Shown: positions 8,597 to 60,315, numbered from the stretch's first letter. The stretch: DNA of 64,000 nt from Ostreococcus lucimarinus (GCA_000092065.1 CP000596.1); one strand, 5' to 3'. Numbers and translations are program-made. Notes: generated by a model from the sequence alone, not told the origin.

Positions 8597-8827
8597 CGCG
8601 CGTCACCGCGTCGCCCCGGCGTCGCGCCGCGCGCGCGTCGCGTCGCGTCGCCGCGCGTCCGCGTCTCGCGCGCCGGTCGGTCGGCGCGCGCGGGCGGCGC
8701 GGTCGGTCGCACACGCATTCAGTCAGACACCACATACACCACACACCACACATGGGCGCACACTTCATAATATACGTCACGCGTATCGTGATAGTCTTAA
8801 TCACATCCACAATGCGTTGACTCGCAC

Positions 8828-8841
8828 GTATATCGATATAC
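8828..8841. promoter_or_regulatory. Perfect 14-bp palindrome GTATATCGATATAC in the AT-richer core of the METTL5/HSP70 divergent promoter
   Basis: Read directly from the sequence, ~110 bp upstream of the HSP70 ATG, in an AT-rich island (8711-8860) within otherwise GC-rich DNA. Confidence 0.35.
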
Positions 8842-8947
8842 CGATTCCGACGCCGCGCGCCGTCGCGTCGCGTCGCGTCGCGTCGCCGCGGCGCGCCGGC
8901 GCGCCGGCGCGAAGGCGCGGCGTCGGCACAACTTTACGCGCGAGAAA

Positions 8948-10623
8948 CATGAGCAAGGCCGAGGGACCGGCCATCGGCATCGATTTGGGCACGACGTATT
9001 CATGCGTCGGCGTCTGGCAACACGACAGGTGCGACGCGCGACGCGACGCGACGCCACGGCGACGATCGCATCGCGCGCGGACGGCGCGCGATGGGCGTTT
9101 CGGCGATGCGCGGCGAACGATCGCGGCGCGGGCGCGCGCGATTCGACGCGAACGACGACGGTGACGCGATGGGACGCGAGAAGGAAATATGCGCGAGCGA
9201 ACGGCGGCGCGGGCGCGGGCGACGCGCGGTCGCGCGCGACGGGAGACGCGAGATCGGCGCGCGCCGTCGACACCATCTTTCGAAGCTTCTTGGACGTTCT
9301 CGCGGCTTCGGAGGGCCGTGTGTTGAATTGTATGACGCGGCGAGACGCGCGCGACGTCGGACGTCGGGGGGGGGTCGGGCGATCGCGCGAGGGCGCGCGA
9401 GAGCGCGAGAGCGAAGACTGACGAATGTGTGACGCGTGTGTCTCGTTTGACGCAGGGTGGAGATCATCGCGAACGACCAGGGGGCGCGAACGACGCCGTC
9501 GTACGTGGCGTTTACGGATAGCGAACGCCTGATCGGGGACTCGGCGAAGAATCAAACCGCGATGAACCCGATGAACACGGTTTTCGACGCGAAGCGTTTG
9601 ATTGGACGCAAGTTTTCTGAACCGCAAGTGCAAGCGGACATCAAGGATTGGTCGTTCAAGGTCGAAGCCGGCGAGGCGGACAAGCCGATGATCGTCGTCG
9701 AGTTTCACGGCGAGAAGAAGAAGTTTTCCGCGGAGGAGATTTCTTCCATGGTGCTCGTCAAGATGAAGGAAGTCGCGGAGGCTTACCTCGGTAAGGACAT
9801 TAAGAACGCTGTCGTCACCGTGCCGGCGTACTTCAACGATTCTCAGCGTCAGGCGACCAAGGATGCCGCCGTCATCTCTGGTTTGAACTGCTTGCGCATC
9901 ATCAACGAACCGACCGCCGCGGCGATCGCTTACGGTCTGGACAAGCGCCACGAAGCCAACGGCGCTGAGAAGAACGTTTTGATCTTCGATCTCGGTGGAG
10001 GTACCTTCGATGTGTCTTTGTTGACCATCGAAGAAGGCATCTTCGAAGTCAAGGCGACGGCTGGCGACACGCACTTGGGCGGCGAAGATTTCGACGCTCG
10101 CTTGTTGCAGCACTTCATCGCTGAATTCAAGCGCAAGAACAAGAAGGACATCACGGGCAACCCGAAGGCACTCCGTCGTCTCCGATCTGCTTGCGAACGC
10201 GCCAAGCGTACCTTGTCTTCCACGGCGCAAACGTCCATCGAAATCGATTCCTTGTTCGAAGGCGTCGACTTCTACACTTCCATCACCCGCGCTCGCTTCG
10301 AAGAGCTCTGCATGGATTTGTTCCGCAAGTGCATGGACCCGGTCGAAAAGACGCTTCGCGATGCGAAGATGGACAAGTCGCAAGTTCACGAGGTCGTCCT
10401 CGTCGGCGGATCCACGCGCATCCCCAAGGTGCAACAGCTCTTGTCCGATTTCTTCAACGGCAAGGATTTGTGCAAGTCCATTAACCCCGATGAAGCCGTC
10501 GCCTACGGTGCGGCCGTCCAAGCCGCTATTTTGTCCGGCGAAGGCAACGAAAAGGTGCAAGACTTGCTCTTGCTCGACGTTTCCCCGCTCTCCATGGGTC
10601 TCGAAACCGTCGGCGGCGTGATG

Positions 10624-10655
<32 letters not shown>

Positions 10656-10824
10656 GACAAAGAAGGAACAAGTGTTCTCCACTTACTCCGACAACCAGCC
10701 GGGTGTGTTGATCCAAGTCTTCGAAGGCGAACGCTCCCGTACGCGCGACAACCACTTGTTGGGCAAGTTCGAGCTCTCCGGCATTCCGCCGGCGCCGCGC
10801 GGCGTCCCGCAAATTAACGTTTGC

Positions 10825-10856
<32 letters not shown>

Positions 10857-11328
10857 GTCCGCCGAAGACAAGGGCTCTGGCCAAAAGAACAAGATTACCA
10901 TTACCAACGACAAGGGTCGCTTGAGCAAGGAGGACATCGAGCGCATGGTCCAAGACGCGGAGAAGTACAAGGCTGAGGACGAGGAGCACAAGAAGAAGAT
11001 CGAAGCCAAGAACGCCGTCGAGAACTACGCGTACAACATGCGCAACACCATGAACGACACCAACGTCGGTGGCAAGTTGGATGCGGACGACAAGAAGACG
11101 ATCGAAGACGCCGTCGAGGCCGCGATCACTTGGTTGGACGGTAACCAAACCGCCGAAGTGGACGAGTTCGAGGACAAGCTCAAGGAATTGGAGGGTGTGT
11201 GCAACCCGATCATCAGCAAGATGTACCAAAACGCTAGCGGTGCTCCGGGCGCCGACATGGGTGGTGCTCCGGGTGCTGAAGATGCCGGTGGTGCCTCCTC
11301 TGGCCCGAAGATTGAGGAAGTCGATTAA
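8948..11328 (+). CDS. HSP70: Cytosolic heat-shock protein 70 (HSP70/HSC70), join(8948..9027,9456..11328)
   Basis: Exon 1 encodes [26 protein letters not shown](R). Intron 9028..9455 runs GTGCGAC...TTTGACGCAG. Exon 2 continues VEIIANDQG... and covers the full NBD/SBD, ending GPKIEEVD*. The 26-codon first exon is too short to be listed in the ORF track. Confidence 0.9.
9028..9455 (+). other. HSP70 intron (428 nt), unusually long for this locus and rich in (GCGAC)n/(GACGC)n tracts
   Basis: GT at 9028-9029 and AG at 9454-9455. The split Arg codon AG|G is restored. The intron contains 'gcgacgcgcgacgcgacgcgacgccacgg' and related repeats. Confidence 0.8.
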
Positions 11329-11500
11329 GTCTTCTCCTCGCGATTCCATTTTTGAGTACTGAAACGAAACGTTGTTCCGCGCCCGTGGCGGAGTTTTAGC
11401 CAGGTTTGCCAGCTTAGGATGCAATCAACACAATATCCATTCACTTAAGTCGCTTCGCTCGTGTCTTCGCACGTTCTTTTTACACAGTCTAATCTCTCGT

Positions 11501-14281: not shown

Positions 14282-16318
14282 TTACGAATTCATGCTATCC
14301 GCGAGGGCGTCGAAGGCGTTGCGAGCGACGACGGGGGCGGGTTCGGCGAGCTTGGGCGCGGGCGCGGCGCGCTCGCGAGGCGCGGGCGCCGATTTCTCGG
14401 CGGCGGCGGGCTTGTCCTTGGGCGCGGGTGTGTCCTTGGACTTGCCGTCCTTGCCGTCCTTGGGCTCTGGTCTGCCTTTGGCGAAGCGAAATTTGTCGTC
14501 GAGCTCGAGGGAGAGCTTGGTGAGCTCGAGTTCGAGGTCTTTGACGTCGTCGCCGGCGTCCTTGGCGGCTTGAATCTTCTCCTTGAGTTCCTTCTCCTCT
14601 TTGAACTCCTTGCGCTTGACCGCGCCGACGGAGCGCTTGAGATCTTCGGCTTGCCAATCGCGACCGGCTTCCTTGAGCGCCTCTTCGCGCGGGCGAGCGC
14701 CGCCGAAGAGCGAGCTCTTCGCCGCGGCGCCGACGGGGGCGTCGGTGGAACGCTTTTGCAAGTTCAGTTTGGGCCTCGCGGCGCGCTCCTCGGGAGTCGC
14801 TTCGCGGAGTTCTTCCTCTTTGCGCGGGGCGAACGAAGACTTGCGGCCCCATCTGTCGCCATCGGAATCTTTCGGTTCGTCGTATTGCTTGCGCTCGGTA
14901 CGTTCGGGGTTTTCTTCCGAGCGAATCGGAATCGCTTCGCGCGGCTTGTCCTCGACGTACTTGACGTCTACGGGCTTAGCGCCACCGAAGAGCGAGCTTG
15001 AGCCCGCGCTCGCGCTCGTAGGAGCGGCTTCCGAGCGTGGTTTGAGCTGAAGCTTCGGGCGATCGCCTCGCGGAGCGTAACCATCATCCGACGGCGGCTC
15101 GGCGGCGGCGGTGCGAGAACGCAAAGAGCCCCAGTCGCGGTCGCGTTCTTCGCGCGGAGGTCGATCGTCGTATCGCGAATCACGCTCCGGTAACTGTTTT
15201 CTGTCTCTACTCCAGCTGTCGCTTTCATCCGCGCGCGACGGTCCGAGATCCTCACGCGGCGGCCGGTCTGCGAAATCGCCAAATCCCGGTCTGCGCTCCT
15301 CGCGGTCGCCGTAGCGATCGTCGCCGCCGCCGTAACGGTCGCCACCTCTCTCGGCGTAACGGTCGCCAAATCCTGTTGCACGCCTGTCGCCGCCGTAACG
15401 ATCATCTTGCGGCGGCGCGCGACGGTCCGCGCCCCAGTTAGAGCTCGTATCCGCGCGAGAAGGACCTTGCTCTTCGCGAACCTCTCTGTCGCCATATTCA
15501 CCGTCGCGGCGGTCGTCTCGATCGTACCGACCCGGACGACGCTCATCACTGCGATCACCGCCGCCGTAACGATCACCACCGCCGTAACGATCACCACCGC
15601 CGTAACGATCACCGCCTTGGTTGAATCCACCACCGAGACCGACGCCTCCGTCGTCGTCCGGTCGCGAGCTCGGCCCACTCGGCAGCACGACGTCGTCGCC
15701 GCGTCCTCGACCGAACGCCGATCCACCGACTCGTCCCGGAGGCGCGTACGACGACCCACCCGACGCACCCGCGAATTCTGCGAGCGAAAGTTTCACCCCT
15801 TTCGTCTTCTTCTTCGGTTCCTTCACCTTGGCCGCCGCCCCGAGCGACGGAAACGCTCCGCTCGCGTCCGCTTCCGCCGCCTCCCCGCCGAGCGACGGGA
15901 ACGCCTGCGCCGGCACCGCTAACGATTCCACTCCATCGTTTCCTTCCTTCGTCTGCGTGAATCGCGAAAGCGCGCGTCGTTCCGTCAGTGCGCGCTCGTT
16001 TTCGTCGAGTTTAGCTTTTAAAAATCGAGCCCACGTCCGAGCCGCGATCTCCGCGCGAACCGTCTCGACCGCGCCGCGCCCTCGATCGCGCGCCTCGTCG
16101 CCCCGGCGTCTCGCGAACGATGCGCGCGCAATTTCTCCATCATCTCGCGCGCGAATCGCGCGCGCGCGCGCGTCGCGCGCGTCGCGGGCGACGCGCACGC
16201 GTCGCCCCACGGCGCCGCCATCGGTCGGGCGTCGTTCGATGCATTTCGCGCCGCCGACGCGCGCGCGACGCGTCGCGCGCGTCCGCGACGCGCGACGCGC
16301 GTCGTGAGGATTTTTCAA
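14282..16318 (-). CDS. Plant-type translation initiation factor eIF4B-like protein with DRYG repeats; 5' end unresolved
   Basis: AFPSLGG...KKKTKGVKLSLAEF parallels the plant eIF4B N-terminal motif. The centre has RDRYGGGDRYGGGDRYGGGDR (DRYG domain). There is a K/E-rich C-terminus. The only in-frame ATG is at 16318 and the first ~90 codons look non-coding, so there may be an upstream exon. Confidence 0.5.
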   Translation of the reverse strand: MKNPHDARRASRTRATRRARVGGAKCIERRPTDGGAVGRRVRVARDARDARARAIRARDDGEIARASFARRRGDEARDRGRGAVETVRAEIAARTWARFLKAKLDENERALTERRALSRFTQTKEGNDGVESLAVPAQAFPSLGGEAAEADASGAFPSLGAAAKVKEPKKKTKGVKLSLAEFAGASGGSSYAPPGRVGGSAFGRGRGDDVVLPSGPSSRPDDDGGVGLGGGFNQGGDRYGGGDRYGGGDRYGGGDRSDERRPGRYDRDDRRDGEYGDREVREEQGPSRADTSSNWGADRRAPPQDDRYGGDRRATGFGDRYAERGGDRYGGGDDRYGDREERRPGFGDFADRPPREDLGPSRADESDSWSRDRKQLPERDSRYDDRPPREERDRDWGSLRSRTAAAEPPSDDGYAPRGDRPKLQLKPRSEAAPTSASAGSSSLFGGAKPVDVKYVEDKPREAIPIRSEENPERTERKQYDEPKDSDGDRWGRKSSFAPRKEEELREATPEERAARPKLNLQKRSTDAPVGAAAKSSLFGGARPREEALKEAGRDWQAEDLKRSVGAVKRKEFKEEKELKEKIQAAKDAGDDVKDLELELTKLSLELDDKFRFAKGRPEPKDGKDGKSKDTPAPKDKPAAAEKSAPAPRERAAPAPKLAEPAPVVARNAFDALADSMNS

Positions 16319-16533
16319 TCGCGCGCTACGATCGTACCTGTGCGCTCCACGCGCTGGTCGTGCCCCAAGCCATGTTTCGTTGTGCGGGACGATCGGCGCT
16401 GGGTCTTTACGCCGATGCCGGGCCGAAGGAGAGGCGCGGCGGCGAGGCGAGGCGAGGCACGCGAACCGATGTCAAATGAAGGTTTATTATGACAACTGAT
16501 TATGAAAGATGGATGCGTGATGCGCGTGCGCGT

Positions 16534-18639
16534 TTAGGCGGCGGCGAAACCGAGCGCTTGGGCGATGTCGCGCTCGCTGGCGCTCTCGGCGGCGGCGATG
16601 ATGTCGGCGGCTTCGATCGAGTCGTCCTCGGCGGCGTCTTCGGAATAGATGAGAGAGACGGCGCTGGAGGATTTGGAGTGGCGGCGCGCGGGCGAAGGCG
16701 CGAAGGCGTCCGAAGCGTCGCTTTGATTGCGCTCCAACATTTGAGCATACGAGCCGCGAGTGGCGAAATTGACGGTATTCCAACTTGGGACTCGGCCGCG
16801 GGAACCCATGCGGCCGCGACCGCGGAGGTTTTTGCGGAGGGAGGCGACGCACTCGTCGAGGACGAGTTCGATCCCGCACGCGTGCTCGATGGCGGCGAGT
16901 TGCGGCCAGATTTCTTTCTCGCCCATCGTCGCGGTTTCGAACAAGAACTCGCGCGTGGGATTGCTGGCGATGTGTGAAAATTGCTTCCACGTGTACCACA
17001 TCACCGCCGTGGCGTCGCCCTCCCACTGTTGACCGAAGAGTTTGAAGACATCGAAGACGTCGACGCCCGGAATCAAATCCAACACTTGTCGACAGCGATG
17101 TTTCCACTCGCTCTCGATGAAGTACGCCCAGAGGGCCAGCGCGCTTCCGCGCGATGTAAACCACCTTTTCACTCGCAACAGAGGGACGATGTGCGGATTC
17201 GTCTGCGACACGATGAAGTAATTGCAGTTGAAGAGTTCGCGCAAGTTGTCCATGGGCAGATCCGCCTCGAGACTACCATCGCGCCAGCGTCGCGGTCCGA
17301 GTTTTCCTTCTGGGAGCCACGGCACGAAGGCGCCGCTGCGAGATTTTGCCAACAATGGCTGCGGCGGGAACAACGAGGGAAACGCGCACGACGCCGCGAC
17401 GGCTGACCAAAGCACGACGTGCGGCGACGTGAGATAGTTTAACAGTCTCGGTTTTTCCCCAGTCGTCGTTGCACACACACACACACTCAGTATTCTGCCT
17501 CCACTTCGATCGTATGCCTCTTGAAAAGTCAAGTCGCCGAGTAACGCGCGGAGACAGCGCTGGAAAAAGTCAATGTCGTGCAACGCCCCGGTGCGCAAGT
17601 AGTGCTTCATCGCGCTCATCGAATCGTTGCCGCTGAAGAACGTCAAGTCTGGGAGCAAATCCCAAAAGTGCTCTTCGCTGAAGAACTCATCGAGCTCTTC
17701 CTGCGTGCGACTGCCGATAATGGCGGCGATGATGGAGCCGACAGACGATCCGGCGAGCACGCGCGGGAGCAAATGTTTCCGATTCAACGCGCGCGCGACG
17801 CCGACGTGAAACGTTCCGAGCGTCCCTCCTCCGCTCATCATCAGCGCCGTGCGCCCGAAACAATGTCTCGTCTCTTGCAAAAACACCAGCTTTTCCTGAA
17901 TCGTCACCGTTTCGTCCTGAGCGATGCTAAACAGCTGACTTTTCAGCTCGGCCATGTACTGGCGCACCGCCCGAGGCACCGCCGGCGGCTCGGCGTTCGA
18001 TTTCGAAAACCGCACCTTACAATCGCTCTGCAACGATCCCAAATTCCTCAAAATATCAGCTCTGAGCAAGAACATCATCTCTTCCACGTTCCCACTCGCG
18101 CGCTGCGCCTGCAACTGCCTCAACTGTTCATCGATTAACTCGACGTCGTACGACCTCGACCCGCTTCCCCAACCGTCGCTCCGCGTCGTCGCCCGACCTC
18201 CCGCCTCCGCTCGCGCTTCTTCTTCCGCATCCTCGCGTTCGAGTTCCAACGCCGCGTCTTCAAACGCATCGTACGACGTCGCATCTCGCATTCGCGCTAA
18301 GATTTCCTTTCGTTTGCGTCCGTGTCGCCGTCGCGCCGCCGTCGCCGCCGTCCCGTCGCCTCGCGCCGCGAGATACCCCGTCCTCGTCACCGCCACCGCC
18401 ACCGCGACGCACGCGACGACGCGCGCGTACATTTCGTACTCTTGTCTCATCCATCTCCCGCGTCCGGCGCGGACGTACGCGCCGTACGGCGTCCGCGACG
18501 GCGTCGCGCGCGCGGCTGTCCCCGTCAGCATCAGCATCGGCGACGACGTTTTCACGCTTCGCACCGTCTGCGCCACCGCGCGCGCGACGTCGCGCGCCGC
18601 GGACGCCGCGTAGGACACCCCTTCGTCGAACGCGCCCAT
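16534..18639 (-). CDS. SDP1/TGL4-like patatin-domain triacylglycerol lipase (DUF3336 + patatin)
   Basis: The patatin motifs GGGTLGTFHVGV, the GSSVGS nucleophile elbow and a DGS Asp are present. The N-terminal DUF3336-like region reads MFLLRADILRNLG. ORF 16534..18897, trimmed to the Met at 18639 that precedes the conserved region. Confidence 0.75.
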   Translation of the reverse strand: MGAFDEGVSYAASAARDVARAVAQTVRSVKTSSPMLMLTGTAARATPSRTPYGAYVRAGRGRWMRQEYEMYARVVACVAVAVAVTRTGYLAARGDGTAATAARRRHGRKRKEILARMRDATSYDAFEDAALELEREDAEEEARAEAGGRATTRSDGWGSGSRSYDVELIDEQLRQLQAQRASGNVEEMMFLLRADILRNLGSLQSDCKVRFSKSNAEPPAVPRAVRQYMAELKSQLFSIAQDETVTIQEKLVFLQETRHCFGRTALMMSGGGTLGTFHVGVARALNRKHLLPRVLAGSSVGSIIAAIIGSRTQEELDEFFSEEHFWDLLPDLTFFSGNDSMSAMKHYLRTGALHDIDFFQRCLRALLGDLTFQEAYDRSGGRILSVCVCATTTGEKPRLLNYLTSPHVVLWSAVAASCAFPSLFPPQPLLAKSRSGAFVPWLPEGKLGPRRWRDGSLEADLPMDNLRELFNCNYFIVSQTNPHIVPLLRVKRWFTSRGSALALWAYFIESEWKHRCRQVLDLIPGVDVFDVFKLFGQQWEGDATAVMWYTWKQFSHIASNPTREFLFETATMGEKEIWPQLAAIEHACGIELVLDECVASLRKNLRGRGRMGSRGRVPSWNTVNFATRGSYAQMLERNQSDASDAFAPSPARRHSKSSSAVSLIYSEDAAEDDSIEAADIIAAAESASERDIAQALGFAAA

Positions 18640-18850
18640 CGCGCGCGCTCGATTCGCGTCGCGCGACGCGCACTGCGGCGTAATCGCGCCGACGCCGACC
18701 GAAAGTTCGTTACGCGTCGGCACCTCAGACGACGACGCGACGTCGCGCGCCGTTCGCGCGCGCCCGAACGTCGCGCGGCGGTGAGAAGAGACTCGCGCGC
18801 GCGTCGCGAGCGCGCGCGCGACGTCGAACGCGCCGCACCGCGCTCGAACG

Positions 18851-20485
18851 ATGGGAGATTCGCGCGACGTGGCGAATCGGCGGCTGGGACAAATCAACGA
18901 TCACGTCCGCGGCGACGCGAAACGCGCGAACGGAGGCGCGAGAGCGGGCGGTGGCGATGGGTCGGACGCGCGAGCGACGCCGTCGGGGGGCGCGGGGGCG
19001 CTGCACGTGCGAGACTCGCGGACGGGGAAGGAGTATGAAATCGCGGTGTCGAGCGACGGCGCGGTGGACGCGTCGGCGTTTAAACAAATCACCGCGGGCG
19101 GCGATGGACGAGGTTTGGTGATGTACGATCCCGGATACATGAATACGGCGCCGTGTAAGTCGAAGATATCGTACATCGACGGCGAACGGGGGATTTTGAG
19201 GTATCGCGGGTACGCCATCGAGAGCTTGGCGAAATCGTCGACGTATCTGGAGACGGCGTTCGCGTTGGTGTACGGAGATATGCCGAATGCGAGTCAGTTG
19301 ATGGAGTGGGAACGGACGATTGCGAGGCATAGTGCGTTGCCGGTGCAGGTGGTGCACGCGATCGAGGCGTTGCCGCACGACGCGCATCCGATGGCGGTGA
19401 TGCTCGCGGGGTTGAACTCGTTGAGCGCGATGCACCCGGAGCAGAATCCAGCCATCGCGGGTGGGGCGATTTACAACTCTCACACCGTGCAGGATAAACA
19501 AATCGTGCGCATCATCGGCAAAATGACCACGCTCGCCGCGCACGCATATCATCGAAACACCGGGCGCTCGCCGGCGGCGCCGAATACGCGCATGTCGTAC
19601 GCGGAGAATTTCTTGTACATGCTCGACGCCGGTTTGGACGCGCGGCATCGACCGCATCCGAAGCTCGCGAAGGCGCTGGACGTGATGTTTTTACTACACG
19701 CGGAGCACGAGATGAACTGTAGCACGGCGGCGTGCAGACACTTGGCATCGAGCGGGGTGGACGTGTTTTGCGCCGTGGCGGGCGCGGTGGGCGCGCTTTA
19801 CGGGCCTCTGCACGGCGGCGCCAACGAAGCAGTGCTCAAGATGCTCGAACGGATCGGAAGCGTCGATAACATCCCGAGCTTTTTGGCCGGGGTGAAGGAA
19901 AAGCGATACGTGATGTTTGGTTTCGGACACCGCGTTTACAAGAACTTTGATCCTCGCGCGAAGATTATTCGCGACATCGCGAACGACGTCTTCGAGCTCG
20001 TCGGACGCGACCCGTTGATCGACATCGCCATCGAGCTCGAGAAGGCGGCGCGGGCGGACGAATACTTCGTCAAGCGTAAGCTTTACCCGAATGTAGACTT
20101 CTACAGCGGGCTGGTGTATCGCGCCATGGGGTTTCCCCCCGAATTTTTCACCGTGCTCTTCGCCATCCCGCGCGCGACGGGTTATCTTGCGCACTGGCGC
20201 GAGAGCTTAACGGACGCCGACAAGAAAATCATGCGCCCGCAGCAAATTTACCAAGGCGAATGGTTGCGAGATTACGAACCGATCGCCGCGCGCTCGCGCT
20301 CGCTCACCGACGCCATGGAGGATATTCAACCATCCAACGCGGCGCGGCGCCGCATGGCTGGAGACCCGCCATCCGGCACGGCGTGGGTCGGGAAAGGCGT
20401 GGAAATGTCCACGCCGGCGTGGCAGTCGGGCGCGTCAGTCGGCGACGCGACGAGCGGCGTGGAGAACTATCTCGGACGAAAATGA
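18851..20485 (+). CDS. Peroxisomal/glyoxysomal-type citrate synthase with an N-terminal PTS2-like nonapeptide
   Basis: The citrate synthase signature GFGHRVYK and full domain are present. Residues 10-18 read RLGQINDHV (R-L-x5-H-V), a PTS2-like signal. Confidence 0.85.
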
Positions 20486-20533
20486 ATTTACTGTAAATAC
20501 TACACACACACATTTCTCGCTTAAAAGTATCCG

Positions 20534-21589
20534 TCAACGGTGACCCCTATCGATGCACTCTCGAGTGCCGAAGATGTTCGTCCGCCACCTCAAGCACGGC
20601 GCCGTTCCTCCGTTGATGGCGACCGTCCTCGACAGATACATTCGCTCGCGCGCCCGGCGCGGATCGCACAAACCGCTTTGCAGTTCGAACTCAGTGCAAA
20701 ACTGATAGACTTCCTCGAGATCAGGCTGACAGTACGGCCAAGACAGCGGCGCGTTCATTCTCGAAATTCTTTCGCGGTACCACGAACCTCGATTTTCGTA
20801 AGTGCATCGTCGGAGCACCTCCTCGACCGAACACGGTCTCACGAGCGTCGCGCACCGCATGTAATCGTCCAGAGCGGTCGGATTCCCTGGAAAGATTGTG
20901 GAGAACCACGTGAGCTGCTGCATCAACCTACCAATCTCTCCTTGCGGCTCGAACATCACGCGCGAACCGTCCGCGTCGTACACGACGTACGCCTCGTTCG
21001 TAAACGCGACGAAATCAACCGGCGGGTACGCCGCGTCACCGACCCACGTCATCTCCAGCGCTCGCGCGTTCGCGATCCTCTCGAGATCGCTCTGAATGTC
21101 GTACGCGATCTCATCGAGCGTCTCGCGCATCGCGCCCGCGTCGGACGCGCTCGCCGACTCGATCAGGCTCAGCTCGAGCTTCGCCACCTCGCGTTCGACG
21201 TACTCGTCGTAGGACATCGTTCGCGCGCCCGAGTCGACGCCATCGCTCGCGCGCGCGAACTCGTCGTACCATCCCTCTCGCGCGTACCGCGCCTCGCCGT
21301 CGCCGTCGCCGTCGCTGTCGTAGCCGTAATCGTAATCGTAATCGTCGTCGCCCTCGTTTTTGCGAACCGTCGGCGTCGTCGCCTCGGGCGGTTGTTCGAA
21401 CACGCGCACCGTTCGCGACCGCGCGGCGACGGAATCGAGCGCGGACGCCTCCGCGAGCTCGCGCCCCAGCTCGGCCGCGATCGCGAGCGCCGCGAGCGCG
21501 CGTCGCATCGGCGCGACGCCGAGTGCGGCGGAGGCGAAGCGGCGTTTCGCCTCGCCTCGCGTCGACGAACACACCAACAGACGAATCAT
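20534..21589 (-). CDS. Hypothetical Cys-rich protein with a signal-peptide-like N-terminus and an acidic DY-repeat
   Basis: ORF of 351 aa. MRRALAALAIAAELG is signal-peptide-like. It has a (DYDY/GD) acidic tract and a conserved-looking Cys/Trp-rich C-terminal half. No family recognised. Confidence 0.35.
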   Translation of the reverse strand: MIRLLVCSSTRGEAKRRFASAALGVAPMRRALAALAIAAELGRELAEASALDSVAARSRTVRVFEQPPEATTPTVRKNEGDDDYDYDYGYDSDGDGDGEARYAREGWYDEFARASDGVDSGARTMSYDEYVEREVAKLELSLIESASASDAGAMRETLDEIAYDIQSDLERIANARALEMTWVGDAAYPPVDFVAFTNEAYVVYDADGSRVMFEPQGEIGRLMQQLTWFSTIFPGNPTALDDYMRCATLVRPCSVEEVLRRCTYENRGSWYRERISRMNAPLSWPYCQPDLEEVYQFCTEFELQSGLCDPRRARERMYLSRTVAINGGTAPCLRWRTNIFGTRECIDRGHR

Positions 21590-24997: not shown

Positions 24998-25039
24998 GTG
25001 ACGAAGACGCGCGCGTCGCGACGCATCGCGACGCGCGCG

Positions 25040-26044: not shown

Positions 26045-26143
26045 CGGTGAATATTTTGCGCTCGTTCGTTTTTTAGCTTTTTAAATCGCGTTGTTTTTGT
26101 ACATGAAATTTCGTCTCAATCGAATTCGTCGACGACGCCTTCG

Positions 26144-42185: not shown

Positions 42186-42392
42186 GATTCTTCGCAAACG
42201 TTCGAGCGCGCGCGCGCGTCCGCGTCGTCGCGCGTCGACGCGCCGACCCTTCACGCGCGTCGCGTTCGCATGCGATTCGAGAGCCTCCGACGGCGCGCGG
42301 CGCGGTGACGCGGCGCGCGCGAGTGTGACGGCCCGCCTCGGTCTCGGCCCGACGAACGCCTCGGCCCGACAAAACGTCGCGCGGCGCGCGCG

Positions 42393-43256: not shown

Positions 43257-43351
43257 TGACGCAAACGATGTTCTCTAGTTCAGATGTGTGTATTGTAAAA
43301 CCGTGTTGTTAATAGTAGTGTAAAACAGTAGTACGACGTATCGGTAACGCC

Positions 43352-59487: not shown

Positions 59488-60113
59488 TCACGCGCTCGCG
59501 TCCGCGGACGGCGCGGCGTCCTTGGCGACGCCCGTGGAACCGAATCCGCCGGCGCCGCGCGCCGTGTCGTCCAAGTCGTCGCATTCGACGACTTCCGGCG
59601 TGAGAATTTGTTCGAGGATCAACTGCGCCACGCGATCGCCCTTCTTCACCTCGAAGTCTTCGTCGCCGTGGTTGAACAAAATCACCCCGACGTTGCCGCG
59701 GTAGTCGTAATCCACCACCCCCGCGCCGACGTCGATGAACTTTTTCCACGCCAAGCCCGATCGCGGGGCGACGCGCGCGTACGTCCCGAGCGGAATCGCG
59801 ATCGACAGGTCTGTCTTCACCAATTCTTTCCCACGCGCCGGCACGACGCAATCGTGCGCGCTGCGACATTCGCGATCGCGTCGTCTCGTCAGTCGCCGAA
59901 AATTCAAATTTCCCTCACCCTTCGCGCGCGCGCGCGTCGGCGTTCCCTTCGTCGCTCGTCCAACGACGCGGGCGGCCTTTCGCCCGCGCGAGACGCGGGA
60001 AAAATCGCGCTTTCGCACCTCGCCAGATCGTATCCCGCCGCGCCTTCGCTCCCTCGCGTCGGCATCGTCGCGTCGTCGCTCAGTCGCTTCACGCGCAGCG
60101 CCGCGGACGCCAT
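59488..60113 (-). CDS. DUT: dUTP pyrophosphatase (dUTPase), complement(join(59488..59860,60019..60113))
   Basis: Exon 1 [31 protein letters not shown] ends in phase 2 at donor AG|GTGCGA. The 158-nt intron spans 59861..60018. The acceptor TGTCGCAG|C gives ...[18 protein letters not shown]... with dUTPase motifs 2-5 ([32 protein letters not shown]). Confidence 0.85.
59861..60018 (-). other. dUTPase intron (158 nt)
   Basis: Donor GTGCGAAAGC and acceptor ...AATGTCGCAG. Splicing produces the YDL(A)S(A)xD spacing conserved in dUTPases. Confidence 0.75.
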
Positions 60114-60315
60114 CGTTCGCGCGCGTTTTCGTTCGTGCGTCGTCGCGCGCGTCGTCGTCGCGCTTCGGCGTGCGAGGCGCGCGAGGATGCGATGCGTCGC
60201 GCGCGTCGTCGCGCGAAGCGGTCGCGTCGCGTCGAGTCGCGTCGCGCGATGGCGACGCCGATCGGTCGTCGCTCGACCGTCCGCACTCGGTCGCGCGACG
60301 CGAGCGACGACGCGG

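What the first reader, a model, noticed from the sequence alone, without database searches (positions are those of the whole stretch)
16534..20485. Divergent SDP1-type TAG lipase and PTS2-bearing citrate synthase share a ~210-bp bidirectional promoter
In Arabidopsis, SDP1 (storage-lipid hydrolysis) and the peroxisomal citrate synthases are both required to mobilise TAG via β-oxidation and the glyoxylate cycle. Here an SDP1/TGL4-like patatin lipase (minus strand, ATG ~18639) and a citrate synthase with an N-terminal RLGQINDHV nonapeptide (plus strand, ATG 18851) are head-to-head. Their raw ORFs overlap at the 5' ends. A shared promoter would couple lipolysis to peroxisomal acetyl-CoA use in this alga, for example during recovery from N-starvation or dark lipid remobilisation. 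The -HV in place of the canonical -HL of PTS2 is also unusual.
Basis: partly seen in the sequence, partly recalled or inferred. Interest (0 to 1): 0.6.

Follow-up and report, generated by a model that had tools for sequence, protein, structure and literature searches.

The report
Head-to-head lipase and citrate synthase genes
In this tiny marine green alga (Ostreococcus), a fat-splitting lipase gene and a peroxisome-type citrate synthase gene do sit back-to-back 211 bases apart, but that layout is routine in this compact genome, is inherited with about ten neighbouring genes, and has not been shown to link the two genes' regulation.

Summary
An SDP1/TGL-type patatin lipase (minus strand, 16534-18639) and a citrate synthase (plus strand, 18851-20485) are head-to-head, with 211 bp between their start codons. 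The citrate synthase belongs to the plant peroxisomal (CSY2/3) clade, not the mitochondrial one. Its RLGQINDHV peptide aligns exactly with the plant PTS2.

- About a quarter of gene junctions in this window are head-to-head with similar spacers, so the arrangement is not unusual.
- The pair is conserved in every Mamiellales lineage sampled: four Ostreococcus clades, two Bathycoccus lineages and three high-GC lineages. However, the whole roughly ten-gene block around it is conserved too, so this shows synteny, not selection for co-regulation.
- The pair is not adjacent in Chloropicon, Coccomyxa or two other picoeukaryote contigs.
- No motif specific to this spacer was found.
- The -HV ending is typical of Ostreococcus and the high-GC Mamiellales clades. 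It falls outside the published PTS2 consensus and has not been validated experimentally.
- Published surveys find no isocitrate lyase or malate synthase in five Mamiellales genomes. The proposed glyoxylate-cycle link therefore fails, and citrate export of β-oxidation acetyl units is the likelier role.

These are ordinary genes in an ordinary arrangement, with a modest unproven possibility of co-regulation.

The parts
16534..18639 (-). Coding sequence of an SDP1/TGL3-5-type patatin triacylglycerol lipase (701 aa from ATG 18639; stop included)
   Evidence: The ORF is. Pfam finds DUF3336 plus Patatin. The protein is 41-46% identical over about 75-80% of its length to proteins that their sources name triacylglycerol lipase SDP1.
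17863..18318 (-). DUF3336 domain (residues 108-259), the N-terminal domain typical of SDP1/TGL3-5 lipases
   Evidence: PF11815, E 1.3e-15, 57.8 bits.
17251..17844 (-). Patatin catalytic domain (residues 266-463), with oxyanion-hole SGGGTLG (from residue 269), nucleophile elbow GSSVG (297-301, nt 17737-17751) and catalytic Asp in DGS (from residue 454)
   Evidence: PF01734, E 1.5e-25. The three motifs are located and match those in a plant SDP1 (P0212).
18640..18850 (.). 211-bp CpG-rich (75% GC) spacer between the two start codons. It must hold both 5' leaders and both core promoters.
   Evidence: Sequence and composition. It carries 4 copies of GACGCG[AC] and 2 of the palindrome CGACGTCG. GACGCG[AC] is equally dense in other 5' spacers of the window. 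No RNA family matched.
18851..20485 (+). Coding sequence of a type-II (GltA-like), plant-peroxisomal-clade citrate synthase (544 aa; stop included)
   Evidence: The ORF is and the PF00285 hit. The best solved relative is Arabidopsis CSY3, peroxisomal (9x0i), at 673 bits. The best-scoring of the remaining solved chains, presumably bacterial GltA-type enzymes, reaches about 385 bits, and mitochondrial CSY4 (6k5v) 97 bits.
18881..18907 (+). PTS2-like nonapeptide RLGQINDHV (residues 11-19)
   Evidence: It aligns on RLAVLSGHL of a plant citrate synthase, 8qzp. It forms a conserved island in the alignment of green-lineage N-termini. It is invariant in four cluster members that vary elsewhere in the N-terminal region.
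19133..20242 (+). Citrate synthase catalytic domain (residues 95-464)
   Evidence: PF00285 covers its full profile, positions 1-357, at 431 bits.
20366..20482 (+). C-terminal extension of about 40 residues beyond the end of the alignment to plant CSY3, ending ...[14 protein letters not shown]. It has no PTS1-like tripeptide.
   Evidence: The alignment to CSY3 ends at residue 505. The tail motif GDATSG[VM][ED] is shared by the Ostreococcus and high-GC Mamiellales orthologues.

Best explanation
These are two ordinary, ancestral Mamiellales metabolic genes that happen to be divergent neighbours in a very compact Ostreococcus genome.

The minus-strand gene encodes an SDP1/TGL-type patatin lipase with an intact Ser-Asp dyad. 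It most likely hydrolyses storage triacylglycerol (inferred from homology).

The plus-strand gene encodes the green-lineage peroxisomal-type citrate synthase. Its N-terminal R[LV]x5HV peptide is the Mamiellales version of the plant PTS2. It most likely still directs PEX7-dependent import into the peroxisome (inferred, not shown).

Published surveys of five related Mamiellales genomes find neither isocitrate lyase nor malate synthase. The enzyme therefore cannot run a glyoxylate cycle. Its probable job is the one shown for Arabidopsis CSY2/3: condensing β-oxidation acetyl-CoA with oxaloacetate so that carbon leaves the peroxisome as citrate for respiration.

The 211-bp spacer is necessarily shared 5' regulatory space. 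This is true of roughly half the genes in such genomes. The pair's conservation is explained by a collinear block of about ten genes that has survived across the order. Coupled regulation of lipolysis and citrate synthesis is possible, but nothing found here supports it.
For: Gene identities:
- Pfam domains, solved-structure matches and named homologues agree.
- The lipase catalytic motifs SGGGTLG, GSSVG and DGS are intact.

The N-terminal signal:
- The nonapeptide is positionally homologous to the plant PTS2.
- It is invariant within clades while the downstream linker varies.
- The chance rate of the loose motif is about 0.1-0.4% per 40 residues.
- The N-termini carry 3-4 acidic residues in the first 30 positions, followed by an Asp/Gly-rich linker. 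That is unlike a mitochondrial presequence.

Base rate of head-to-head pairs:
- for this window, and PMC4035068 for O. tauri.

Conservation:
- Collinear blocks that include the pair occur in the P0002 Ostreococcus clade, the O. tauri clade, O. mediterraneus, Bathycoccus prasinos, a second Bathycoccus-like lineage and three high-GC lineages.
- The window itself has the same order from HSP70 through Snf7, the eIF4B-like gene, the lipase, the citrate synthase, an unknown gene and the Pterin_4a gene to the tRNase Z-like gene.
- The genes are not adjacent outside Mamiellales.

Spacer and pathway:
- No pair-specific spacer motif was found.
- Isocitrate lyase and malate synthase are absent from the KEGG annotation of five Mamiellales genomes (PMC6642084).
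Against: - The nonapeptide fails the published PTS2 consensus at position 6 (N) and position 9 (V). RLx5HV has only been proposed as 'likely functional' and is not validated (PMC7710942).
- Bathycoccus orthologues have T or S in place of the essential H/Q at position 8. The signal may therefore be decaying in part of the order.
- I could not establish that this genome also has a mitochondrial-type citrate synthase. The scan returned only sequences 65-95% identical to the pig query, presumably animal-type. If this gene were the only citrate synthase, it would have to serve the TCA cycle.
- An arrangement kept through the whole order, joining two steps of one pathway, is also what selection for co-regulation would produce.
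- In O. mediterraneus, one apparent transcript contig runs through both genes. The citrate synthase leader there covers at least 141 nt of the spacer. The promoters therefore do interpenetrate physically.
Confidence: 0.6

Rival explanations
1. The 211-bp spacer is a functional bidirectional promoter, kept by selection. It switches on TAG lipolysis and peroxisomal acetyl-CoA consumption together, for example in the dark or on recovery from N-starvation.
For: - The two genes are head-to-head in every Mamiellales lineage sampled, despite large divergence in GC content (0.50 to 0.70) and in spacer length (187-668 bp).
- In Arabidopsis, both functions are needed for mobilising storage oil. This rests on established knowledge: Eastmond 2006 for SDP1, and Pracharoenwattana et al. 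2005 for CSY2/3, the latter listed in the references seen.
- In O. mediterraneus the citrate synthase leader occupies at least 141 nt of a 327-bp spacer, and one transcript-like contig spans both genes. The transcription start sites are therefore less than about 190 bp apart.
Against: - The flanking genes (eIF4B-like, Snf7, HSP70, Pterin_4a, tRNase Z-like) have no link to lipid metabolism, yet they are conserved in the same order and orientation. Conservation therefore does not single out this pair.
- Two more head-to-head pairs lie within the same block.
- Shared k-mers between orthologous spacers do not exceed dinucleotide-shuffled controls in pairwise tests.
- The modest excess of GACGCG-type words comes from a motif that is equally dense in unrelated 5' spacers of the window.
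- The pair is not linked in Chloropicon, Coccomyxa or two other compact picoeukaryote contigs.
Confidence: 0.2
2. The citrate synthase is not peroxisomal in this alga. The nonapeptide is a relic, and the enzyme works in mitochondria or the cytosol, or is dually targeted. It may even be the cell's only citrate synthase.
For: - The peptide departs from the PTS2 consensus at positions 6 and 9.
- Bathycoccus orthologues lack the H/Q at position 8.
- There is no glyoxylate cycle to serve.
- A transcriptome study of Ostreococcus RCC809 treats its differentially expressed citrate synthase simply as a TCA-cycle enzyme (PMC10662239).
- I found no evidence either way for a second, type-I citrate synthase.
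Against: - R at position 1, L/V at 2, an aliphatic residue at 5 and H at 8 are kept in the Ostreococcus and high-GC clades. O. tauri has RVGVLSAHV, very close to plant RLAVLSAHL.
- The peptide is invariant within clades while the adjacent linker drifts, which indicates purifying selection on it.
- The extreme N-terminus is acidic (D/E at positions 3-6) and the linker is rich in Asp. This is unlike mitochondrial or plastid transit peptides.
- O. tauri appears to retain PEX7.
- No PTS1 has replaced the signal at the C-terminus.
Confidence: 0.2

Closest known systems
Arabidopsis SDP1 (SUGAR-DEPENDENT1) and yeast Tgl3/4/5 patatin-domain triacylglycerol lipases
   Same: It has the same DUF3336 + Patatin architecture. 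The oxyanion-hole motif differs from plant SDP1 by two residues (SGGGTLG against SGGASLG), and the GSSVG and DGS motifs are identical. It is 41-46% identical to plant SDP1 over about three quarters of its length.
   Different: At 701 aa it is shorter than plant SDP1 (about 820-850 aa). Its N- and C-terminal regions are not conserved even between Ostreococcus clades. Substrate and location on lipid droplets are untested.
Arabidopsis peroxisomal citrate synthases CSY2/CSY3 and pumpkin glyoxysomal citrate synthase
   Same: It is about 60-65% identical to CSY3 across the whole catalytic domain (673 bits). It has an N-terminal extension with a nonapeptide at the homologous position.
   Different: - The nonapeptide ends in -HV, not -HL, and has N at position 6.
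- The linker is shorter and lacks the conserved Cys seen in the plant linkers. I recall that Cys as lying near the plant processing site.
- There is an extra C-terminal tail of about 40 residues.
- Related Mamiellales genomes have no isocitrate lyase or malate synthase, so the enzyme cannot be 'glyoxysomal' in function.
Divergent (bidirectional) gene pairs of compact eukaryotic genomes, for example the 2288 pairs catalogued in O. tauri
   Same: The genes are head-to-head with well under 1 kb between start sites, and the spacer is CpG-rich (PMC4035068).
   Different: Here the two products belong to one catabolic route in plants. No co-expression or shared element has been shown.
Non-canonical PTS2 variants (RLx5HV, RIx5HM, RVx5HL) noted in stramenopiles
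   Same: It has the same RLx5HV pattern as Saprolegnia HIUase, which the authors list as 'likely additional functional PTS2' (PMC7710942).
   Different: It occurs in a different lineage and a different cargo. Here the variant is fixed across a whole set of clades for one cargo. None of these variants has been validated experimentally.

Membership tests
SDP1 / Tgl3-5 patatin TAG lipases | Patatin (PNPLA) catalytic domain | tested here: met
   PF01734, E 1.5e-25, residues 266-463.
SDP1 / Tgl3-5 patatin TAG lipases | DUF3336 domain immediately N-terminal to the patatin domain | tested here: met
   PF11815, E 1.3e-15, residues 108-259. All 120 listed homologues but one carry the same pair of domains.
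SDP1 / Tgl3-5 patatin TAG lipases | Glycine-rich oxyanion hole, G-X-S-X-G nucleophile and D-G-x catalytic Asp | tested here: met
   SGGGTLG from residue 269, GSSVG from 297 and DGS from 454. GSSVG and DGS are identical in the plant SDP1 P0212, which has SGGASLG at the oxyanion hole.
SDP1 / Tgl3-5 patatin TAG lipases | Triacylglycerol hydrolase activity at the lipid droplet | not testable with these tools
   This needs an enzyme assay, a knock-out or localisation.
Plant-type peroxisomal citrate synthase (CSY2/3) | Type-II (GltA-like) citrate synthase closer to CSY2/3 than to mitochondrial type-I enzymes | tested here: met
   673 bits to CSY3 (9x0i) and 664 bits to 8qzp. Against that, 97 bits to CSY4 (6k5v) and about 93 bits to pig citrate synthase.
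Plant-type peroxisomal citrate synthase (CSY2/3) | N-terminal nonapeptide at the position of the plant PTS2 | tested here: met
   RLGQINDHV aligns on RLAVLSGHL of 8qzp and on the RLxxLSxHL column of 26 green-lineage sequences.
Plant-type peroxisomal citrate synthase (CSY2/3) | The nonapeptide fits the PTS2 consensus R-[LVIQ]-x-x-[LVIH]-[LSGA]-x-[HQ]-[LA]. I give this consensus (Petriv et al. 2004) from my own knowledge; the paper is cited. | tested here: not met
   Positions 1, 2, 5 and 8 fit. Position 6 is N and position 9 is V. The strict patterns find no match in the window. V at position 9 is typical of Ostreococcus and the high-GC Mamiellales clades.
Plant-type peroxisomal citrate synthase (CSY2/3) | PEX7-dependent import into peroxisomes | not testable with these tools
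   There is only indirect support. A PEX survey that included O. tauri lists PEX7 as missing from three other species only (PMC8172628).
Glyoxylate cycle enzyme set | Isocitrate lyase and malate synthase present in the same genome | not testable with these tools
   Neither gene is in the window, and the whole genome is not available here. A published KEGG survey finds neither enzyme in O. tauri, O. lucimarinus, Bathycoccus prasinos, Micromonas commoda or M. pusilla (PMC6642084). This argues against membership.
Co-regulated bidirectional gene pair | Head-to-head orientation with a short shared spacer | tested here: met
   211 bp between the ATGs.
Co-regulated bidirectional gene pair | Arrangement conserved more strongly than the surrounding gene order | tested here: not met
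   The pair is conserved across Mamiellales, but so is the whole collinear block from HSP70 to the tRNase Z-like gene.
Co-regulated bidirectional gene pair | Conserved, pair-specific cis-element in the spacer | tested here: inconclusive
   Pairwise k-mer sharing does not exceed shuffled controls. There is a small excess of GACGCG-type 7- and 8-mers across 7 lineages, but the motif is generic to 5' spacers. The spacers are too diverged to align.
Co-regulated bidirectional gene pair | Correlated expression of the two genes | not testable with these tools
   No expression data could be linked to these genes. The RCC809 supplement held as text names only one citrate synthase, Od05g01850, and neither Od05g01840 nor Od05g01860.

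The most novel reading that the evidence does not exclude
The divergent SDP1-citrate synthase pair is a real lipid-mobilisation module that arose once in the Mamiellales ancestor and is co-regulated through its shared spacer.

Under this reading, R[LV]x5HV is a lineage-specific PTS2 variant still read by PEX7. It would feed a peroxisomal citrate-export route in algae that have lost the glyoxylate cycle.

Bathycoccus, whose orthologues have lost the His at position 8, would then have relocated or be losing peroxisomal citrate synthase.
Probability: 0.15. Interest if true: 0.45.

Novelty: new member of a known kind. Interest (0 to 1): 0.25.

Why it matters
If the coupling were real, it would be a rare eukaryotic case of two steps of lipid catabolism wired together by gene order. 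It would also offer a compact, naturally matched promoter for engineering picoalgae.

As it stands, the work yields three smaller results:
- The peroxisomal-type citrate synthase of Mamiellales carries a conserved PTS2 variant ending in -HV that deserves an import test.
- These algae keep that enzyme although, by published surveys, they lack the glyoxylate cycle. That points to a citrate-export role like the one shown in Arabidopsis seedlings.
- Conserved adjacency in these genomes cannot be read as evidence of co-regulation unless it is compared with the neighbouring genes.

Tried and rejected
1. Second citrate synthase. I searched for a mitochondrial-type enzyme in Mamiellales by scanning metagenome contigs with pig citrate synthase. 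I wrote that sequence from memory, and it matched 1cts over its full length. The tool chose patterns specific to the pig sequence, and the hits were 65-95% identical to it, presumably from animals.

2. Literature. Searches for a second citrate synthase, peroxisomal targeting or co-expression in Ostreococcus or Micromonas found nothing specific. The supplement of the RCC809 light-quality study lists one citrate synthase, Od05g01850, as up in blue light. It mentions neither Od05g01840 nor Od05g01860.

3. Conserved spacer elements. Pairwise shared 8- to 10-mers between the window spacer and six orthologous spacers did not exceed dinucleotide-shuffled controls. Across 7 lineages there was a small excess of GACGCG-type words. 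I rejected this as pair-specific because the motif is as dense in unrelated 5' spacers.

4. The palindrome CGACGTCG. It is mildly over-represented in the window (26 matches against 17.8 ± 4 expected). Five copies lie between 18141 and 18826. That stretch is the most CpG-rich part of the region, and the orthologous spacers do not share the palindrome consistently. I did not pursue it.

5. Hidden RNA gene in the region. I rejected this: no Rfam match at E ≤ 0.1 in 16000-21000.

6. Real overlap of coding sequences. I rejected this. The 47-bp overlap exists only if the lipase starts at the TTG at 18897. Gene calls in other assemblies give 699-701 aa from the ATG.


Full report
**Observation.**
On the minus strand, an open frame runs from 18897 (TTG) down to 16534. 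Its first ATG is at 18639, giving a 701-aa product. On the plus strand, a 544-aa frame starts with the first possible start codon, ATG 18851, and ends at 20485. The two ATGs are 211 bp apart (18640-18850). The raw frames overlap by 47 bp, but only because the high GC content keeps the lipase frame open upstream of its ATG. Gene calls for orthologues in other assemblies give 699-701 aa. The lipase N-terminus is not conserved between clades, so the ATG is likely rather than proven. The window has about 62% GC and roughly one gene per 1.7 kb. The closest named relatives are O. tauri and O. mediterraneus proteins at 83-84% identity. The window therefore comes from another Ostreococcus lineage.

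**What the two genes are.**
- The minus-strand protein has DUF3336 followed by a patatin domain. It is 41-46% identical to proteins that their sources name triacylglycerol lipase SDP1. It keeps the oxyanion-hole SGGGTLG, the GSSVG nucleophile elbow and the DGS catalytic aspartate, close to or identical with those of a plant SDP1. It meets every sequence criterion of the SDP1/Tgl3-5 family. Its activity is inferred.
- The plus-strand protein is a full-length citrate synthase. Against solved structures it scores 673 bits with Arabidopsis peroxisomal CSY3. The best of the remaining solved chains, presumably bacterial GltA-type enzymes, reach about 385 bits. Mitochondrial CSY4 and animal enzymes score only 93-97 bits.

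**The N-terminal peptide.**
- RLGQINDHV (residues 11-19) aligns column for column with the PTS2 RLAVLSGHL of a plant citrate synthase. It also aligns with the RLxxLSxHL island in an alignment of 26 green-lineage N-termini.
- A loose version of the motif occurs once in 31,400 residues of six-frame translation of the window, and that occurrence is this peptide.
- Within clades the peptide is invariant while the linker behind it varies.
- The extreme N-terminus is acidic and the linker is rich in Asp and Gly. That does not resemble a mitochondrial presequence.
- The -HV ending is not a peculiarity of this gene. Examples are O. tauri RVGVLSAHV, O. mediterraneus RLDTIGKHV and the 85%-identical clade's RLGTVANHV. 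Three high-GC Mamiellales clades have RVQALSAHV, RLEAIGRHV and RVESLTRHV.
- One Ostreococcus-like clade has Q at position 8. The Bathycoccus lineages have T or S there, which breaks a position regarded as essential.
- By the published consensus, the window's peptide fails at positions 6 and 9. RLx5HV has been noted in an oomycete protein as 'likely functional', but it has not been tested (PMC7710942).
- A comparative survey of peroxins that included O. tauri lists PEX7 as missing from three other species only (PMC8172628). The receptor is therefore probably present.
- I conclude that peroxisomal import is the most likely reading but is not shown.

**Is the arrangement special?**
- In the window, about 10 of about 38 gene junctions are head-to-head. 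Their spacers are 42-954 bp, with several close to 200 bp.
- A published count for O. tauri gives 2288 bidirectional pairs involving 3884 transcripts (PMC4035068). Having a divergent neighbour about 200 bp away is therefore the default.
- What could make this pair special is the functional relation between its products, together with conservation.

**Conservation.**
- The lipase and the citrate synthase are head-to-head in every Mamiellales contig I could retrieve:
  - the 85%-identical Ostreococcus clade (spacer 265 bp);
  - the O. tauri clade (named);
  - O. mediterraneus (200-327 bp);
  - Bathycoccus prasinos (374 bp);
  - a second, Bathycoccus-like lineage (187 bp);
  - three high-GC lineages (464-668 bp).
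- They are not adjacent in Chloropicon primus, in Coccomyxa viridis, or in two other gene-dense picoeukaryote contigs.
However, the same contigs show that the neighbours are conserved too.
- The shared order is: tRNase Z-like/Lactamase_B, Pterin_4a, an unknown gene of 334-398 aa, citrate synthase, lipase, an eIF4B-like gene, Snf7. In the high-GC lineages it continues through TPX2 to HSP70. The window has the same order.
- Two further head-to-head pairs sit in the same block. Conservation therefore reflects general collinearity and does not argue for selection on this pair.

**The spacer.**
- It is 75% GC and full of CGCG-type words.
- Orthologous spacers are too diverged to align.
- Pairwise shared 8- to 10-mers do not exceed dinucleotide-shuffled controls.
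- Across seven lineages there is a small excess of GACGCG-type 7- and 8-mers. In the window, however, GACGCG[AC] is just as dense in unrelated 5' spacers. Examples are 42186-42392 (also 75% GC) and 59870-60186. The motif is absent from the AT-richer tail-to-tail spacers. It is a general promoter-region feature.
- No RNA family matches the region.
- O. mediterraneus gives a hint about transcript structure. A contig that looks transcript-derived begins with T8, 54 nt past the lipase stop, and runs through the lipase, a 200-bp spacer and the citrate synthase. Another contig carries the citrate synthase alone with a 141-nt leader. A third shows a 327-bp spacer. The two start sites in that species are therefore less than about 190 bp apart, and the transcripts may overlap.
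- This supports 'shared promoter space' as a physical fact. It does not show co-regulation.

**Pathway context.**
- A phylotranscriptomic study checked KEGG genomes. It found neither isocitrate lyase nor malate synthase in O. lucimarinus, O. tauri, Bathycoccus prasinos, Micromonas commoda or M. pusilla (PMC6642084). That part of the model cannot hold for this lineage.
- The better analogy is the role shown for Arabidopsis CSY2/3 in fatty-acid respiration, where acetyl units leave the peroxisome as citrate (Pracharoenwattana et al. 2005, cited). I give that mechanism from established knowledge.

**What remains open.**
- I could not determine whether the genome also has a type-I mitochondrial citrate synthase. 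If there were none, this enzyme would have to work in mitochondria.
- No expression data could be tied to these genes.

**Verdict.**
The peroxisomal-clade assignment is right. The PTS2 reading is plausible but non-canonical. The glyoxylate-cycle link is wrong for this lineage. The regulatory coupling is unsupported, because both the arrangement and its conservation are what the genome's general architecture predicts. I rate it an ordinary locus with a modest testable idea attached.

Noticed in passing
window 8797-11349 (-) and 9457-11328 (+): The longest ORF here is on the minus strand and hits Pfam PF10712 'NAD-specific glutamate dehydrogenase' at 439 bits. The real gene is HSP70 on the plus strand (PF00012, 822 bits). 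From memory, PF10712 is a family built from frames antisense to HSP70, so this would be an annotation trap. The HSP70 match starts at profile position 22, so its true start or a short 5' exon lies upstream.
   Followed up: partly
window-wide; e.g. 20486-20533, 26045-26143, 43257-43351 versus 18640-18850, 24998-25039, 42186-42392: Spacers upstream of genes (head-to-head or tandem) are GC-rich (0.65-0.76) and carry GACGCG[AC] words. Many tail-to-tail spacers are short and AT-richer, down to GC 0.33-0.40 in the three shortest examples given here, and most lack the motif. This compositional signature marks 5' versus 3' intergenic DNA in this genome.
   Followed up: partly
window 20534-21589 (-): A 351-aa protein with no Pfam match and a Cys-rich C-terminal half lies tail-to-tail 48 bp from the citrate synthase. 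An unannotated gene of 334-398 aa (about 535 aa in the second Bathycoccus-like lineage) holds the same position in most Mamiellales contigs seen, though I did not check that these are homologues. In Bathycoccus prasinos the gene at that position is called as 1153 aa with copper amine oxidase domains; from memory, that enzyme is peroxisomal in plants.
   Followed up: no
window 20366-20482 (+), C-terminus of the citrate synthase: Mamiellales citrate synthases carry a tail of about 40 residues beyond the end of the plant CSY3 alignment. Its conserved ending is ...GDATSG[VM][ED]... (GEQGSSGIEH in Bathycoccus). The function is unknown and it is not a PTS1.
   Followed up: no
L005-L007 and L012-L014 (Bathycoccus lineages), N-terminus of the citrate synthase: The nonapeptide reads RVAHFSR[TS]V or RVEHLSRSV, so the H/Q at PTS2 position 8 is replaced by T or S. 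The linker keeps a Cys (…SSCNAS), as plant linkers do; from memory, that Cys is near the plant processing site. This may mean loss or change of peroxisomal targeting in Bathycoccus.
   Followed up: partly
L103, L104, L105 (O. mediterraneus): The lipase-citrate synthase spacer is 327 bp in one assembly and 200 bp in another. The 127-bp difference is bounded by a short GCGAGCGT microrepeat, so it is either a strain-level indel or an assembly collapse. The 4031-nt contig spans exactly both genes and starts with T8. That is consistent with merged, overlapping divergent transcripts.
   Followed up: partly
window 18141-18826: Five of the window's 26 copies of the palindrome CGACGTCG (ACGT core) fall in this 700-bp stretch, two in the spacer and three in the 5' coding part of the lipase. 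The 12-mer CGCGACGTCGCG occurs at 18583 and 18736. The local CpG richness may explain it.
   Followed up: partly
proteins P0027, P0043, P0066, P0069, P0070, P0073, P0077 (homologues): A group of related citrate synthases of 457-495 aa lacks the N-terminal nonapeptide region. They end in ...RRI[SA]G[ST]NW[QFY], which is not a classical PTS1. Their lineage and targeting are unknown.
   Followed up: no
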